Assembly (NCBI GenBank): GCA_016839545.1
Contig: JAEOUB010000124.1
Location: 1-5,171 of the forward strand
Source of the DNA: Candidatus Kariarchaeota archaeon
Lineage (GTDB): Archaea; Asgardarchaeota; Heimdallarchaeia; Heimdallarchaeales; Kariarchaeaceae
DNA: 5,171 bases
Direction of reading: 5' to 3'
How positions within the stretch are numbered: position 1 is the first letter of the stretch; every line of letters begins with the position of its first letter. Below are positions 72-2,333 of this stretch, piece after piece. The translations under genes were made by a program, and so were the position numbers. Under the pieces are notes generated by a model. That model made no database searches. It saw nothing but the letters and a program-made list of their open reading frames with translations, and was not told the DNA's origin.

Positions 72-959
72 TTAGGCTAGTTCAGTCGCAATTCTATCTT
101 TTGCAAGCTGGCAGTAGCTCTTATCAATATCAACCATGATGTAATTACGAGAAGTCTGAATTGCTGCAATGGCTGTTGTTCCTGCTCCTGAAAACGGATC
201 TAGGACGACATCACCAGCAAATGAATACATCTCAATCAGGCGTTTTGGAAGTTCTACAGGAAATGGAGCAGGATGGCCTACCTTCTTGGCAGATGCTGTT
301 GGAAATGTCCAGATACTCTTGGTTGATTCGAGAAAATCATCTTTTGAGATGGTATCAGTTTTATTGTGTTTGGAGTTCTTCCTTGAAAATTCACCCTTTG
401 AGTAAATGAGAATATATTCATGAACATCTCGCAATGTTGGCGAAGATGCTGATTGCCATGATCCCCATGCAGTTGAGGTGCCAGCAGAAGCTGCTTTGTT
501 CCAGATTATCTCCCCTCGCATGAAAAAGCCAAGATCGATCATCATAGAATTGATATACGTACTGAGTGGAATGTATGGTTTTCTTCCGACATTTGCAACA
601 TTAATACAAACACGTCCACCTCTGATTAAGACACGATTTACCTCTTGCATGACCTCTTTGAGCATAGAAAGGTACTCACGAAGGGATAGATCGACATCAT
701 AGTCCTTGGAAACATTGTATGGGGGTGATGTAATTACCAGATGAACGCTATTATCTGGGATCTGTTTCAAATCCCTAGAATCAGCTTGAAGAACAGAATT
801 GACAAGAGAATGTGGTAGGGGCGTTTCTTGTATGTTTTTCTCCTCTCGAAAAGAGTACTCCTGATAGAGATTGGATTCATAGAATACACTGGAATCATGA
901 CGTTCGCGTTTAGAGGACCCAAATGATCTGGTAGAAGTTCCCTTTTTCATGGAAATCAA
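72..959 (-). CDS. DNA methyltransferase, N4/N6 family, beta-class; likely m4C-type; no cognate nuclease in the window
   Basis: 295-aa ORF. Motif IV is VITSPPY (SPPY encoded at 717-728, checked by reverse-complementing). It lies N-terminal to motif I, LDPFSGAGTT, near the C-terminus, and this order defines the beta group. S-P-P-Y/F is typical of N4-cytosine enzymes. The track start at 959 is TTG and overlaps the upstream stop (TTGA). The first ATG is at 950-948 and may be the real start. Confidence 0.85.
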   Translation of the reverse strand: MISMKKGTSTRSFGSSKRERHDSSVFYESNLYQEYSFREEKNIQETPLPHSLVNSVLQADSRDLKQIPDNSVHLVITSPPYNVSKDYDVDLSLREYLSMLKEVMQEVNRVLIRGGRVCINVANVGRKPYIPLSTYINSMMIDLGFFMRGEIIWNKAASAGTSTAWGSWQSASSPTLRDVHEYILIYSKGEFSRKNSKHNKTDTISKDDFLESTKSIWTFPTASAKKVGHPAPFPVELPKRLIEMYSFAGDVVLDPFSGAGTTAIAAIQTSRNYIMVDIDKSYCQLAKDRIATELA

Positions 960-1429
960 CGGTTAAATGCGAATTTACCTGTAAGTAGAGCTAATCCCAG
1001 CGTAAGTGTACCTATAGAACCGATATCACCAGCAGGTACCTGAACAACTTCATTACCCTTCTCGAGATCTTTCCTTCCCAATCCAGGATCATTTCCTCCG
1101 AAAACTGCGACCCACCTCTTTCCTTCAAGGGTGCTCACAAATTCAGAGTCTAGATTTTTCTTCCCATATGGAGGAGGGGCAACTACTATGATAGTTTCGG
1201 GTTGAAGAAGTTCGATTACATCGTCCAAGCTCCCCAGGGAGAAGAAATTGATACCATTTTGCATTGCCAATTTCTGGGCGGAAGGCAGACCCCTCTGTGC
1301 AGCACTTCCCTGGGCATGTGTGATCGCTAATGTCTTGAAACCCATTCCAGCAGCGATTTTAACAAACTCTGAGCAGCTGTTAGAAGATGCTACATTATGG
1401 AGTACTACAATTGGATACTCAACAGGCAT
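956..1429 (-). CDS. Conserved hypothetical protein, possible SPOUT (SpoU/TrmH-like alpha/beta-knot) RNA methyltransferase fold
   Basis: 157-aa ORF with an ATG start (1429-1427) and a TGA stop at 958-956, abutting or overlapping the methyltransferase start. The C-terminal segment VAVFGGNDPGLGRKDLEKGNEVVQVPAGDIGSIGTLTLGLALL resembles SPOUT motifs 2 and 3 (vfG.E..Gl ... v.IP ... SLN...A.ai.l). The coding call is solid. The family assignment is from memory of motif patterns only. Confidence 0.5.
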   Translation of the reverse strand: MPVEYPIVVLHNVASSNSCSEFVKIAAGMGFKTLAITHAQGSAAQRGLPSAQKLAMQNGINFFSLGSLDDVIELLQPETIIVVAPPPYGKKNLDSEFVSTLEGKRWVAVFGGNDPGLGRKDLEKGNEVVQVPAGDIGSIGTLTLGLALLTGKFAFNR

Positions 1430-1463
1430 ACACTCCCTACGGAATACCTGCTATAATTACCTT

Positions 1464-1940
1464 CTATAGTGTTCTATCACCAGCAATTTCCTGTGATCGC
1501 AGACGAGTAGAGGATATGGGCTCACCATCCACATATATCCAAGGGATAACAACTATATCGAGTATATTGAGGTCAGCTTCCTCTCTCATGGCATTGATGC
1601 GATGGGCTGAAGGTTCTGTTTCATACGAAACTACAATAACTTCAGCATTTGGATCATGAGGAGCAGGTCCCCAAGGATCCAGTAGTTCTCCAACTTCAAA
1701 TCTTACATCGAATTGAGAGAGGAAATCTGAGACACCAGTGGCTCTTTCCTTGTACGATTGAATGAGATGATTGTTGTCTTTTTTTGCAAAGAGGGTTTTG
1801 CCCAATTCATCTCCAACAATACCGACAAACACTTCATCGGCAATATTTGCGGCAGTTCTCAACAATGACCTGTGTGCGTCATGAAGTCGATCGAATGTCC
1901 CTCCCATCATTGCCTTTCGGTACACATGCACACTCATCAT
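1464..1940 (-). CDS. coaD: Phosphopantetheine adenylyltransferase, archaeal/eukaryotic type (cytidylyltransferase fold)
   Basis: 158-aa ORF. It carries the nucleotidyltransferase signature GGTFDRLHDAH (a T/HxGH-type motif) at the N-terminus and ISSTRLR near the C-terminus. Size is about 155-160 aa, as in archaeal PPATs. ATG-ATG start at 1940-1935 and TAG stop at 1466-1464. Confidence 0.8.
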   Translation of the reverse strand: MMSVHVYRKAMMGGTFDRLHDAHRSLLRTAANIADEVFVGIVGDELGKTLFAKKDNNHLIQSYKERATGVSDFLSQFDVRFEVGELLDPWGPAPHDPNAEVIVVSYETEPSAHRINAMREEADLNILDIVVIPWIYVDGEPISSTRLRSQEIAGDRTL

Positions 1941-1966: not shown

Positions 1967-2056
1967 GAATCTTGTATCATCTTTATTTTGAAGAAAATGG
2001 AATACCACATTCTAGGAAAGCAGAAGCTTGGTGATGGAGTGTAATCTAAATCTAAG

Positions 2057-2064
2057 TTTAAATA
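2057..2064 (+). promoter_or_regulatory. Archaeal TATA box (TTTAAATA) for the 5S rRNA transcription unit
   Basis: Near-consensus TTTAWATA box preceded by an A-rich segment. The usual spacing of about 26 nt puts the start near G2086-G2088. That gives a leader of about 50 nt ahead of the 5S body. Confidence 0.55.
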
Positions 2065-2114
2065 AGTTGAATTTCAAGAGAGTTTGTGTCTCGCTCACGG
2101 GTGAGTCACAATTC

Positions 2115-2139
2115 ATAGGAGATCCTAAGCGGGAAAGTT
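2115..2139 (+). other. 5' (leader) strand of the BHB processing motif: outer helix 2115-2129, central 4 bp 2130-2133, bulge AAA 2134-2136, inner helix 2137-2139
   Basis: Pairs checked by hand. U2123-A2263, C2124-G2262, C2125-G2261, U2126-A2260, A2127-U2259, A2128-U2258, G2129-C2257. C2130-G2253, G2131-C2252, G2132-C2251, G2133-C2250. G2137-C2249, U2138-A2248, U2139-A2247. The outer stem extends with G2121-C2265, A2120-U2266, G2119-C2268, G2118-C2269, A2117-U2270, U2116-G2271 (wobble) and A2115-U2272. Confidence 0.7.
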
Positions 2140-2255
2140 AAGCCTTTCAGCGGCCGACATTACTATGGTGCGTGAGCCCATGGGAACTTCGGCACGTTGC
2201 ATATTATTGCGGCCATAGCGAGAGTGTGACACCGGGACACATACCGAACCCCGAT
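2136..2255 (+). rRNA. 5S: 5S rRNA, circularly permuted gene. 3' segment 2136-2201, 6-nt linker 2202-2207, 5' segment 2208-2255. 120 nt between the predicted BHB cleavage sites.
   Basis: Hallmark 5S strings are present but in swapped order. GCGGCCAUAGCG (normally the 5' end) lies at 2209-2220. Loop C ACACAUACCGAAC (2237-2249) is closed by CGGG/CCCG. GUUAAGCC...CAGCG lies at 2137-2152. Helix V is GCCGA(2153-2157)/UCGGC(2189-2193). Helix IV is AUGG/CCAU, capped by UGCGUGAGC (2169-2177). GGGAAC lies at 2182-2187. Every canonical helix forms once 2255 is joined to 2136. Confidence 0.8.
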
Positions 2256-2272
2256 ACTTAGGACCTGCCTGT
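2247..2272 (+). other. 3' (trailer) strand of the BHB processing motif: inner helix 2247-2249, central 4 bp 2250-2253, bulge AUA 2254-2256, outer helix 2257-2272
   Basis: Complement of the leader strand listed above. On both strands the 3-nt bulge lies 3' of the central 4-bp segment. This is the same arrangement as in archaeal pre-tRNA and pre-rRNA BHB substrates. Confidence 0.7.
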
Positions 2273-2283
2273 AAAAATTCTAA

Positions 2284-2306
2284 AGCGGTTTTTAACCGCT
2301 TTTTTT
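2284..2306 (+). terminator. Hairpin plus oligo-T terminator of the 5S unit
   Basis: A 7-bp stem AGCGGUU (2284-2290) / AACCGCU (2294-2300) with a UUU loop runs straight into a T7 tract (2300-2306). Oligo-T tracts are the established archaeal termination signal. Confidence 0.65.
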
Positions 2307-2333
2307 ATTTCGAACTTCTTCAAACGATTCAAG

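What the first reader, a model, noticed from the sequence alone, without database searches (positions are those of the whole stretch)
2136..2255. Circularly permuted 5S rRNA gene: the 3' part is encoded upstream of the 5' part
Segment 2136-2201 reads AGUUAAGCCUUUCAGCGGCCGACAUUACUAUGGUGCGUGAGCCCAUGGGAACUUCGGCACGUUGCA. It carries everything normally found in the 3' half or more of a 5S rRNA. This includes the 3' strands of helices III and II, with the conserved bulged A before GC (A2149). It also includes helix V GCCGA/UCGGC, the loop E region, helix IV AUGG/CCAU with the 9-nt loop D UGCGUGAGC, GGGAAC, and the 3' strand of helix I. Segment 2208-2255 reads UGCGGCCAUAGCGAGAGUGUGACACCGGGACACAUACCGAACCCCGAU and is the normal 5' part. 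It holds the GCGGCCAUAGCG opening, the helix II 5' strand GCGAGAG (pairing with CUUUC-A-GC at 2144-2151), and helix III CGGG/CCCG around the 13-nt loop C ending CCGAAC. The distance from GCGGCC to CCGAAC (41 nt) equals that in E. coli 5S. A canonical three-domain 5S fold forms only if 2255 is joined to 2136. The flanks (2088-2129 and 2256-2280) hold no further 5S-like sequence. This rules out two tandem or truncated copies. Established archaeal precedents for permuted or circularised stable RNAs are permuted tRNA genes, a permuted SRP RNA in Thermoproteus, circular pre-16S/23S intermediates and a permuted 23S in Pyrococcus. I am not aware of a described genomically permuted 5S rRNA gene.
Basis: partly seen in the sequence, partly recalled or inferred. 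Interest (0 to 1): 0.95.

Follow-up and report, generated by a model that had tools for sequence, protein, structure and literature searches.

The report
Permuted 5S rRNA gene with splice-site flanks
In this Asgard archaeon the 5S ribosomal RNA gene is written back-to-front (3' part before 5' part). It is flanked by the signal that the tRNA-splicing enzymes cut and re-join, so the RNA is almost certainly made by circularisation, which would explain why 5S genes could not be found in closed genomes of related Asgard archaea.

Summary

- **The two pieces are 5S.** Window 2136-2201 matches Rfam 5S positions 51-116. Window 2208-2255 matches positions 4-51. The pieces abut, in reversed gene order.
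- **Independent model test.** I built a covariance model only from three bacterial collinear 5S genes, permuted in silico. It hits 2136-2254 full length (58.5 bits, E about 1e-10).
- **New here: a bulge-helix-bulge (BHB) motif.** Leader and trailer form a canonical BHB. The outer helix is CCUAAG/CUUAGG, the central helix is CGGG/CCCG, and the bulges are AAA and AUA. The standard cut sites fall at 2135|2136 and 2255|2256, exactly the junction the fold needs, and release a 120-nt RNA.
- **Conservation.** The same architecture occurs in 15 distinct genes from three Asgard groups: Kariarchaeaceae-type, Heimdallarchaeum and Jordarchaeia-type. Both closed Heimdallarchaeum genomes carry two copies each, and their authors could not predict any 5S gene. 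Compensatory changes are abundant in the 5S helices (23 of 37 pairs) and in the BHB (14 of 17 pairs).
- **Most likely mechanism.** The splicing endonuclease EndA cuts, the ligase RtcB joins, and a circular 5S rRNA results with helix I capped by a short loop.
- **Not shown.** I could not test cleavage, ligation or the final form (circle or re-opened).
- **Closest precedent.** The permuted, circularised SRP RNA of Thermoproteus. I found no report of this for 5S.

The parts
2057..2064 (+). TATA-like box TTTAAATA, the putative archaeal promoter. It would place the transcription start near 2085-2090.
   Evidence: Read from the sequence. The block is conserved in relative L128 while the following leader diverges. 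Jord-type genes have TTTATAT about 28-31 nt upstream of the leader helix. The function is inferred.
2085..2110 (+). Leader hairpin UGUGUCUCGCUCACGGGUGAGUCACA. Its role is unknown.
   Evidence: Predicted in the mini-substrate fold and in the precursor fold. Relatives also have a 5' leader hairpin.
2120..2129 (+). Outer helix H1 of the BHB, 5' strand (AGAUCCUAAG).
   Evidence: It pairs with 2257-2266. All 10 H1 pairs show changes on both sides across 8 distinct flanks.
2130..2133 (+). Central 4-bp helix h of the BHB, leader strand CGGG. It is a copy of the 5' strand of helix III.
   Evidence: It pairs with CCCG 2250-2253. This helix is 100% paired in the 8 distinct flanks counted, and 3 of its 4 pairs show compensatory change. 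It covaries with helix III: CGGG, CGGA in L005, CUGG in L135.
2134..2136 (+). 5' bulge AAA. The predicted EndA cut is at 2135|2136.
   Evidence: Geometry. The rule that the cut falls after the second bulge nucleotide comes from established tRNA-intron (37/38) geometry. The R1 and Rfam alignments both start at A2136.
2136..2201 (+). 3' part of the 5S rRNA. It holds the loop B 3' strand, the helix II 3' strand with bulged A2149, helix V, loop E, helix IV, loop D and the helix I 3' strand.
   Evidence: Matches Rfam model positions 51-116 at 28.1 bits. Covered by the R1 full-length hit. Pair counts.
2202..2207 (+). Hexaloop UAUUAU that caps helix I, where a normal 5S has its two ends.
   Evidence: The loop is identical in five Kari-type genes while the closing pair covaries (A-U, U-A, G-C).
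2208..2255 (+). 5' part of the 5S rRNA. It holds the helix I 5' strand, loop A CCAUAGCG, the helix II 5' strand and helix III with loop C CCGAAC.
   Evidence: Matches Rfam model positions 4-51 at 22.4 bits. Covered by the R1 hit. All four helix III pairs are compensatory.
2250..2253 (+). CCCG. It is the 3' strand of helix III in the mature RNA and strand h' of the BHB in the precursor. The two pairings exclude each other.
2254..2256 (+). 3' bulge AUA. The predicted EndA cut is at 2255|2256.
   Evidence: The minimum-free-energy fold of the precursor shows this 3-nt bulge.
2257..2266 (+). Outer helix H1 of the BHB, 3' strand (CUUAGGACCU).
   Evidence: L129 carries CCUGAG/CUCAGG, a compensatory change.
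2282..2308 (+). Terminator-like hairpin AAAGCGGUUUUUAACCGCUUU followed by a run of T. This is the likely 3' end of the transcript.
   Evidence: It is conserved in L128 with a different loop. Runs of T follow the trailer in all lineages.

Best explanation
This is a functional, circularly permuted 5S rRNA gene of an Asgard archaeon of the Kariarchaeaceae type.

Proposed pathway:
1. A small independent transcription unit runs from a TATA-like box near 2057 to an oligo-T terminator near 2305. It yields a precursor of about 215 nt.
2. In the precursor the leader pairs with the trailer to form the outer helix H1.
3. The leader CGGG is a decoy copy of the 5' strand of helix III. It pairs with CCCG 2250-2253.
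4. GUU 2137-2139 pairs with AAC 2247-2249.
5. Together these make a canonical bulge-helix-bulge motif with 3-nt bulges AAA and AUA.
6. The tRNA-splicing endonuclease EndA cuts after the second nucleotide of each bulge, at 2135|2136 and 2255|2256.
7. The ligase RtcB joins U2255 to A2136. This gives a 120-nt covalently closed RNA.
8. The freed CCCG re-pairs with the internal CGGG to form helix III. The molecule then adopts the normal three-armed 5S fold, with helix I closed by the loop UAUUAU.

The circle most probably stays closed and enters the ribosome in that form.

Shown:
- the gene order;
- the 5S identity of both parts;
- the BHB geometry;
- conservation and covariation of both the 5S helices and the BHB across lineages.

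Inferred:
- transcription;
- cleavage and ligation;
- that the final form is circular;
- that this is the ribosomal 5S.
For: **5S identity and order**
-. The R1 hit is 58.5 bits, full length.

**BHB at exactly the required junction**
- Seen in the precursor fold, in the BHB table and in the mini-substrate fold, which gives the full helix-bulge-helix-bulge-helix layout.
- Shuffling the flanks gives a 4-bp central helix plus at least 5 bp of H1 in 6e-5 of trials.

**Conservation**
- The same architecture occurs in 15 distinct genes.
  - Kari-type: window (L127 is identical), L128, L129, L001, L005, L135.
  - Heimdallarchaeum copy A: L053, L026. Copy B: L020, L041, L109, L121.
  - Jord-type: L019, L063, L108.
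- Sources.

**Covariation**
- I tested the canonical 5S structure, taken from bacterial genes, on 14 distinct Asgard sequences. 95.3% of cells pair, against 37-46% when the partners are slid. 23 of 37 pairs have compensatory changes. 0 of 500 shuffles reach this.
- For the BHB in 8 distinct flanks, 83.8% of cells pair, against 31-51% slid. The central helix is 100% paired, and 14 of 17 pairs are compensatory.

**Predicted products**
- The predicted circles are 120-122 nt. In 11 of 12 distinct sequences the unconstrained circular fold is the 5S three-way junction.
- The ligated junction of the Heimdall and Jord types has exactly the spacing of collinear 5S genes.

**Literature**
- No 5S gene could be predicted in the two closed Heimdallarchaeum genomes (PMC8813620). 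Each carries two permuted copies.
- Asgard archaea have the broad-specificity (alpha-beta)2 form of EndA (PMC5829648).
- A BHB recruits EndA and RtcB and circularises a permuted SRP RNA in Thermoproteus (PMC4731332).
- A 5S whose native ends are closed by a tetraloop works in E. coli ribosomes (PMC7283268).

**Support for the cap being kept**
- Helix I is only 6-8 bp.
- It is capped by short loops: UUCG, UACG, CACG, AAG or UAUUAU.
Against: - No RNA data could be consulted, so no junction read, cleavage or ligation has been seen.
- The rest of this organism's genome could not be searched for a collinear 5S gene.
- A Jordarchaeum MAG paper reports 'a 5S rRNA gene', with the method unstated (PMC9723677).
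- Kari-type genes give a junction one nucleotide longer than the consensus.
- Heimdallarchaeum copy A and the L063 type have relaxed motifs. Copy A has no helix opposite its 3' bulge. L063 has a 3-bp central helix and no inner helix.
- The window's own unconstrained fold misses helix II, and its folding energy is not unusual (z = -1.1).
- Published work states that archaeal 5S, unlike 16S and 23S, is not processed through circles (PMC12918454).
Confidence: 0.78

Rival explanations
1. The gene and the BHB excision and ligation are as in the best explanation, but the circle is only an intermediate. An endonuclease re-opens it in the helix I cap and produces a conventional linear 5S with normal ends. 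This is how permuted tRNA genes are matured.
For: - Permuted tRNA precursors are circularised and then opened at the true ends (cited in PMC4267664, and PMC10085705).
- Circular pre-16S and pre-23S rRNAs are normally re-linearised.
- The Kari-type cap UAUUAU is conserved. UGCAU|AUUAU at 2198-2207 fits the loose A/U-rich motif at which normal 5S ends are cut in Methanococcus (PMC10515664).
Against: - The caps differ between lineages and are only 3-6 nt long. They include UUCG and UACG, which I recall as stable UNCG-type tetraloops, and these do not fit the A/U-rich motif.
- That motif carries only about 5 bits of information.
- Helix I has shrunk to 6-8 bp with G-U pairs. That is weak for holding two free ends.
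- In the closest precedent, the SRP RNA, the circle is the final product. Circular 23S is also reported inside mature archaeal ribosomes.
Confidence: 0.22
2. The precursor is cut at the BHB, or trimmed, but never ligated. The mature 5S is a linear permuted molecule with ends at A2136 and U2255 in loop B, held together by helix II and the capped helix I. This would resemble the permuted mitochondrial 5S of brown algae.
For: - The break lies in an internal-loop strand, and all helices can form without joining.
- Brown-algal mitochondrial 5S is permuted in the final product (PMC4267664).
Against: - A conserved, covarying BHB is the recognition element of a cut-and-ligate pathway. Known archaeal RNAs excised at a BHB (tRNA introns, pre-rRNAs, SRP RNA) are circularised by RtcB.
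- The exact consensus spacing of the predicted ligated junction in the Heimdall and Jord types would have no explanation.
Confidence: 0.08
3. The locus is not the working 5S gene. It is a rearranged relic, a pseudogene or an assembly chimera, and a normal collinear 5S gene elsewhere supplies the ribosome.
For: - The rest of this MAG could not be searched.
- The Rfam score in genomic order is below threshold.
- One Jordarchaeum MAG is said to contain a 5S gene.
Against: - An independent assembly carries the identical gene.
- The gene occurs in 15 distinct forms in three lineages, with 23 of 37 structural pairs compensatory and a covarying processing motif. This is purifying selection on the structure.
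- Promoter-like and terminator-like signals are present.
- Two closed long-read genomes have two copies each, and no conventional 5S could be predicted in them.
Confidence: 0.03

Closest known systems
Permuted, circularised SRP RNA of Thermoproteus tenax and T. uzoniensis (Plagens et al. 2015, PMC4731332)
   Same: - The 3' part is encoded upstream of the 5' part.
- No canonical gene could be found by standard models.
- The leader and trailer form a BHB that is cut by the tRNA-splicing endonuclease.
- Ligation restores the functional fold.
- The original ends are covalently closed, and the circle is the final product.
   Different: - The RNA here is 5S rRNA, a core ribosomal component.
- The host is an Asgard archaeon, not a crenarchaeote.
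- The inner half of the BHB is built from conserved 5S residues. The leader carries a decoy copy of a helix III strand.
- Here nothing has been shown experimentally.
Circularly permuted tRNA genes of Cyanidioschyzon merolae and Thermofilum pendens (Soma 2007; Chan 2011, PMC3218864)
   Same: The gene halves are in reversed order. A BHB forms at the precursor ends, and the RNA passes through a circular intermediate made by the splicing machinery.
   Different: The tRNA circles are re-opened at the true ends, by RNase P and tRNase Z (from my own knowledge), and an intervening sequence is removed. Here the join of the old ends is a 3-6 nt cap with no evident processing signal.
[quoted passage not shown]
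   Same: Archaeal rRNA is excised at a BHB by EndA and circularised by RtcB. The circle can be the form that sits in the ribosome.
   Different: Those genes are collinear. The BHB lies in the processing stem formed by the normal ends, and any permutation arises only at the RNA level. Here the DNA itself is permuted and the BHB lies inside the molecule, at loop B and helix III. The literature states that 5S is not part of that pathway.
Permuted mitochondrial 5S rRNA of brown algae and other stramenopiles (Valach et al. 2014, PMC4267664)
   Same: It is a 5S rRNA in which helix I is a closed hairpin and the chain ends lie elsewhere.
   Different: It is organellar. The ends lie at the three-way junction, there is no BHB and no ligation, and the final product itself is permuted and linear.
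Engineered cp5S rRNA in E. coli (Huang et al. 2020, PMC7283268)
   Same: The native 5S ends are joined by a tetraloop, and the ribosome remains functional.
   Different: It is artificial. The new ends lie in loop C or D and are fused into 23S rRNA.

Membership tests
5S rRNA (Rfam RF00001) | Three-armed secondary structure: helix I, the helix II-III arm and the helix V-IV arm. | tested here: met
   Met after joining 2255 to 2136. All 32 canonical pairs are standard in the window. 95.3% of cells pair across 14 Asgard genes, and 23 of 37 pairs are compensatory.
5S rRNA (Rfam RF00001) | Conserved sequence motifs in their usual places: loop A CCAUAGC, loop C CCGAAC, AGUUAAGC, the loop E and helix IV region, GGGAA. 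| tested here: met
   See the Rfam alignments of the two pieces. The rearranged sequences also align end to end with true collinear 5S genes.
5S rRNA (Rfam RF00001) | Collinear 5'-to-3' gene order, and a score at or above the gathering threshold (38 bits) in genomic order. | tested here: not met
   The genomic order scores 27.3 bits. Relatives score 30.6-31 bits or give no hit at all. The in-silico-permuted model gives 58.5 bits.
5S rRNA (Rfam RF00001) | Presence in the large ribosomal subunit. | not testable with these tools
   This needs RNA or ribosome data.
Bulge-helix-bulge substrates of the archaeal splicing endonuclease | A central 4-bp helix flanked by two 3-nt bulges on opposite strands, with outer helices. 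| tested here: met
   In the window the outer helix is at least 7 contiguous bp, the central helix is CGGG/CCCG, the bulges are AAA and AUA, and the inner helix is GUU/AAC. The motif is conserved and covarying. It is relaxed in Heimdallarchaeum copy A and in the L063 type.
Bulge-helix-bulge substrates of the archaeal splicing endonuclease | Cleavage by EndA at the bulges, and ligation by RtcB. | not testable with these tools
   Literature only. Asgard archaea have the (alpha-beta)2 form of EndA with the L1 loop.
Permuted non-coding RNA genes expressed through circularisation (tRNA, SRP RNA) | The 3' part lies upstream of the 5' part on one strand in one transcription unit, with the BHB formed by leader and trailer. 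| tested here: met
Permuted non-coding RNA genes expressed through circularisation (tRNA, SRP RNA) | No conventional copy of the gene in the genome. | tested here: inconclusive
   The authors of the closed Heimdallarchaeum genomes report that 5S could not be predicted. The held loci contain no collinear archaeal 5S. Whole genomes could not be scanned, including this organism's.
Permuted non-coding RNA genes expressed through circularisation (tRNA, SRP RNA) | Junction-spanning transcripts or a circular RNA species. | not testable with these tools
   No transcriptome search was available.

The most novel reading that the evidence does not exclude
In at least three Asgard groups (Kariarchaeaceae-type, Heimdallarchaeum, Jordarchaeia-type) the only 5S rRNA genes are permuted at the DNA level. 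Ribosome biogenesis then depends on the tRNA-splicing endonuclease and RtcB, and the ribosome carries a covalently circular 5S rRNA. The breakpoint is the same to within one nucleotide, and the BHB is built the same way, in lineages of different classes. That would point to a single ancient origin within Asgard archaea, near the archaeal ancestry of eukaryotes.
Probability: 0.45. Interest if true: 0.92.

Novelty: new variant of a known kind. Interest (0 to 1): 0.88.

Why it matters
- **5S rRNA is universal, and its gene has been considered trivially recognisable in cellular genomes.** A DNA-level permuted 5S gene in free-living archaea would be the first permuted rRNA gene of a cytoplasmic ribosome.
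- **It would make the tRNA-splicing enzymes part of 5S biogenesis.**
- **It gives a concrete answer to why no 5S gene could be predicted in the closed Heimdallarchaeum genomes.** It also suggests why Asgard MAGs may fail the 5S criterion for 'high-quality' drafts. Standard models score these genes below threshold or miss them entirely.
- **It predicts a circular 5S rRNA.** This is testable at once in existing enrichment cultures and metatranscriptomes.
- **It adds a lineage marker** in the archaeal group closest to eukaryotes.

Tried and rejected
1. **Synteny first.** Rfam evalue scans of the PPAT-linked loci L001, L004 and L005 found no 5S, and I provisionally concluded that the position was not conserved. 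That was wrong. Model R1 later found permuted genes in L001 and L005 and in L135. Rfam simply misses them.
2. **Direct scoring of the rearranged sequence with Rfam.** This is impossible with these tools, and Infernal is not in the sandbox. I replaced it with piecewise Rfam searches and with the in-silico-permuted model R1.
3. **MAFFT alignments.** A1 and A2 are not in structural register for helices I, II and V or for the trailer. RNAalifold on A2 therefore recovers only part of the structure. I used the alignment to the model (A9) and bulge-anchored mini-constructs (A4, A10) instead. A3 was discarded because MAFFT gapped the L063 row. A6 was discarded because E. coli helix I was misaligned.
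4. **Two errors of my own.** I gave an unbalanced structure string and mis-specified helix IV pairs. Both were corrected.
5. **Folding energy as evidence.** The window circle's folding energy is not unusual (z = -1.1), so I do not use it.
6. **The A/U-rich processing motif in the cap.** It fits only the Kari-type loop and carries little information, so I keep it only as support for a rival.
7. **tRNA scan of the window.** It found none.
8. **Literature searches for an archaeal permuted or circular 5S gene.** None was found.
Full report
**1. What is in the window**

The window is a 5171-bp contig. Its proteins are identical to proteins of a MAG named Candidatus Kariarchaeaceae archaeon. That family belongs to the Asgard archaea, kingdom Promethearchaeati.

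The 5S-like region lies in the intergenic space between two genes. One is a pantetheine-phosphate adenylyltransferase gene at 1464-1940 on the minus strand. The other is a 176-aa ORF at 2362-2892 on the plus strand.

**2. Is it 5S, and is the order reversed?**

Rfam evidence:
- In genomic order, Rfam 5S_rRNA gives one sub-threshold hit at 2115-2205 (27.3 bits, gathering score 38). Only the 3' two-thirds are genuinely aligned.
- Searched alone, 2208-2255 aligns to model positions 4-51 (22.4 bits, E 0.003).
- Searched alone, 2136-2201 aligns to model positions 51-116 (28.1 bits, E 1.2e-4).
- The two pieces therefore cover the model once. They abut at position 51 and lie in reversed order.

I could not feed a rearranged sequence to Rfam, so I ran the mirror-image test:
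- Loci fetched by chance contain two true collinear bacterial 5S genes: L034 4542-4658 and L043 4256-4372. They score 104.9 and 109.9 bits with Rfam.
- I permuted these two genes and E. coli rrfH in silico at the predicted junction. I capped them with GAAA and gave them the canonical 5S structure. From this I built covariance model R1. No Asgard sequence is in the model.
- R1 finds window 2136-2254 from its first to its last position (58.5 bits, E about 1e-10).
- R1 finds nothing at E <= 0.01 in 658 kb of unrelated loci.
- R1 gives only split hits of 29-42 bits on the collinear bacterial genes.

Two further checks agree. Rearranged sequences from the window, Heimdallarchaeum and a Jordarchaeia-type gene align end to end with the collinear genes. 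In the 120-nt circle all 32 canonical pairs are standard, and the fold with helix II enforced lies 0.3 kcal/mol above the minimum free energy.

**3.

| Element | Leader side | Trailer side |
|---|---|---|
| Outer helix H1 | AGAUCCUAAG 2120-2129 | CUUAGGACCU 2257-2266 |
| Central helix h | CGGG 2130-2133 | CCCG 2250-2253 |
| 3-nt bulge | AAA 2134-2136 | AUA 2254-2256 |
| Inner helix H2 | GUU 2137-2139 | AAC 2247-2249 |

- The bulges lie on opposite strands.
- The minimum-free-energy fold of the precursor contains the leader-trailer helix and the AUA bulge.
- A mini-substrate fold gives the complete helix-bulge-helix-bulge-helix layout.
- By the established geometry of archaeal tRNA introns, EndA cuts after the second nucleotide of each bulge. 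The central 4 bp are flanked by 3-nt bulges, and the intron sits at position 37/38. This rule comes from my own knowledge of the field.
- That rule places the cuts at 2135|2136 and 2255|2256. It releases exactly 2136-2255 (120 nt), the joining the 5S fold requires.
- After shuffling the flanks, a 4-bp central helix plus at least 5 bp of H1 in this register arises in 6e-5 of trials.

The inner half of the motif is made of conserved 5S residues. The trailer strand of the central helix is the 3' strand of helix III. The inner helix pairs GUU of AGUUAAGC with AAC of CCGAAC. The leader strand of the central helix is a copy of the 5' strand of helix III. BHB pairing and mature pairing therefore exclude each other, and excision frees CCCG to form helix III.

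**4. It is a conserved gene type, not an accident of this contig**

How the other genes were found:
- A DNA pattern that can only match the permuted order had 0 matches in 200 shuffles of the window. I ran it over one genome per GTDB species and over JGI metagenomes.
- Most hits were chance bacterial matches.
- The real hits were:
  - two copies in each of the closed genomes of Ca. Heimdallarchaeum aukensis (L020, L053) and Ca. H. endolithica (L026, L041);
  - a Jordarchaeia MAG (L019);
  - a gene about 90% similar to L019 in a MAG labelled Thermoproteota (L063);
  - four metagenome contigs (L094, L108, L109, L121).
- Contigs fetched through PPAT homologues, screened by pattern or by R1, added five relatives of the window lineage: L128, L129 (L130 is the same), L001, L005 and L135.
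- An independent JGI assembly, L127, is 99.9% identical to the window over 3137 nt and carries the identical gene.

In all there are 15 distinct genes. All have the same breakpoint to within one nucleotide. Each is preceded by a TATA-like box and followed by runs of T. In the window there is also a terminator-like hairpin at 2282-2302.

**5. Covariation**

*5S structure.* The structure came from bacterial genes and was counted on 14 distinct Asgard sequences aligned to R1. The alignment is fitted to that model, but neither the model nor the structure derives from these sequences.
- 95.3% of cells form standard pairs, against 37-46% when the partners are slid.
- 23 of 37 pairs show changes on both sides.
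- 0 of 500 shuffles reach the observed values.
- Helix III reads CGGG/CCCG, CGGA/UCCG, CUGG/CCAG, UCAG/CUGA and CCGU/ACGG in different genes.
- RNAalifold on the plain MAFFT alignment independently recovers helices III, IV, V and inner helix I. 15 of its 25 pairs are compensatory.

*BHB.* This was counted on 8 distinct flanks in a bulge-anchored alignment.
- 83.8% of cells pair, against 31-51% slid.
- The central helix is paired in every sequence.
- All ten H1 pairs and three of the four central pairs show compensatory change. In total 14 of 17 pairs do.
- H1 is unrelated in sequence between lineages but always complementary. Examples are CCUAAG/CUUAGG, CCUGAG/CUCAGG, AUCUUGGG/CCCAAGAU, ACUCAUUUAC/GCAAAUGAGU, GCGCCAUGA/UCAUGGCGU and GUGGU/ACCAC.
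- The leader copy of the helix III strand changes together with helix III: CGGG, CGGA, CUGG.

*Predicted products.*
- The predicted circles are 120-122 nt.
- In 11 of 12 distinct sequences the unconstrained circular fold is the 5S three-way junction.
- In L019 and L063 the motif is shifted by one nucleotide on both strands, yet it predicts the same ligated sequence, CCGAACACGGAAGUCAAGCC.

**6. Mechanism**

The most likely pathway has four steps:
1. A precursor of about 215 nt is transcribed.
2. The BHB forms and EndA cuts it.
3. RtcB joins U2255 to A2136.
4. The product is a covalently closed 5S rRNA.

Support from the literature:
- A BHB is what recruits EndA and RtcB. It does so for a permuted SRP RNA in Thermoproteus, where the circle is the functional product and the canonical gene had also been 'missing' (PMC4731332).
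- Asgard archaea encode the broad-specificity (alpha-beta)2 form of EndA (PMC5829648). That makes the relaxed motifs of Heimdallarchaeum copy A and of L063 plausible substrates.
- The authors of the closed Heimdallarchaeum genomes wrote that 5S rRNA genes 'could not be predicted' (PMC8813620).
- E. coli ribosomes tolerate a 5S whose native ends are closed by a tetraloop (PMC7283268).

I think the circle is final rather than an intermediate, but only moderately so. Three observations point that way:
- Several of these are, as I recall, stable tetraloops.
- Helix I has shrunk to 6-8 bp.

None of transcription, cleavage, ligation or ribosome incorporation has been observed here.

**7. Caveats**

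- This organism's full genome could not be scanned for a collinear 5S gene.
- One Jordarchaeum MAG is reported to contain 'a 5S rRNA gene', with the method unstated (PMC9723677).
- Kari-type genes give a junction one nucleotide longer than the consensus. The exact cut may therefore differ by one nucleotide.
- Heimdallarchaeum copy A has a leader insertion of about 30 nt opposite its 3' bulge.
- The window's own unconstrained fold misses the weak, G-U-rich helix II. Relatives carry compensatory changes that strengthen it.

**8. Comparison with what is known, and novelty**

The mechanism class is known: permuted non-coding RNA genes rescued by BHB splicing and ligation. It covers the Thermoproteus SRP RNA and the permuted tRNA genes.

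Related cases differ in the following ways:
- Archaeal 16S and 23S rRNAs are circularised at BHBs from collinear genes.
- Pyrococcus and Thermococcus 23S is permuted only at the RNA level.
- Brown-algal mitochondrial 5S is 'permuted' in a different sense: the ends lie at the junction, there is no BHB and no ligation.
- Low-level circular 5S forms without a BHB were noted in Sulfolobus and Pyrococcus.

Eight full-text searches found no report of a genomically permuted, BHB-flanked 5S rRNA gene. A 2023 survey of natural RNA permutations lists none either. I therefore rate this a new variant of a known kind, with high interest.

Noticed in passing
window 2085-2110: There is a leader hairpin just downstream of the putative transcription start. 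Relatives L128, L129 and L001 also begin their leaders with a hairpin carrying ACGGG (L001: GUCC-UACG-GGAC). Heimdallarchaeum leaders have a hairpin directly 5' of the BHB. The role is unknown.
   Followed up: partly
window 2202-2207; L001, L005, L128, L129: The hexaloop UAUUAU that caps helix I is identical in five Kari-type genes, while its closing pair covaries (A-U, U-A, G-C). L135 has an AAG triloop instead. The conservation suggests a function, either binding or a processing site. The loop loosely fits the A/U-rich motif for 5S end processing described in Methanococcus.
   Followed up: partly
L053 6538-6698, L026 5742-5902, L020 6478-6638, L041 7121-7281: Each closed Heimdallarchaeum genome has two paralogous permuted 5S genes with unrelated leaders and trailers. 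Copy A lacks a helix directly opposite its 3' bulge and is followed about 140 nt downstream by a tRNA on the same strand. Copy B lies next to a divergently oriented tRNA.
   Followed up: partly
L063 3909-4070; L108 1946-2107: The MAG labelled 'Thermoproteota archaeon S9B3_HD70' carries a permuted 5S and flanks about 90% like the Jordarchaeia gene in L019. Either the label is generic or wrong, or the trait extends beyond the Asgard archaea.
   Followed up: no
L001 6081-6199 (-), L005 4194-4314 (-): An Rfam scan with permissive E-values reported no 5S in these loci, although both carry a permuted 5S found by R1. Standard annotation can miss these genes completely, which bears on the 5S criterion used for MAG quality.
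   Followed up: yes
window 72-1940 (-); L127, L128, L135, L001: There is a conserved gene cluster of PPAT (CTP_transf_like), a DUF2122/SpoU-like 'RecB-family nuclease' and an N6_N4 DNA methylase. The permuted 5S lies divergently next to PPAT, or within 1-4 kb of it, in most Kari-type relatives.
   Followed up: partly
window 2282-2308: A bidirectional terminator-like hairpin, AAAGCGGUUUUUAACCGCUUU followed by T7, lies between the 5S unit and the downstream ORF. It is conserved in L128 with a different loop.
   Followed up: partly
window 1980-2057: There is a weak Rfam match to a C/D-box snoRNA family (snoR116, 19 bits, E 5.6) just upstream of the TATA-like box. It is probably chance. I note it only because a C/D-box sRNA gene lies next to the permuted SRP RNA gene in Thermoproteus.
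   Followed up: no
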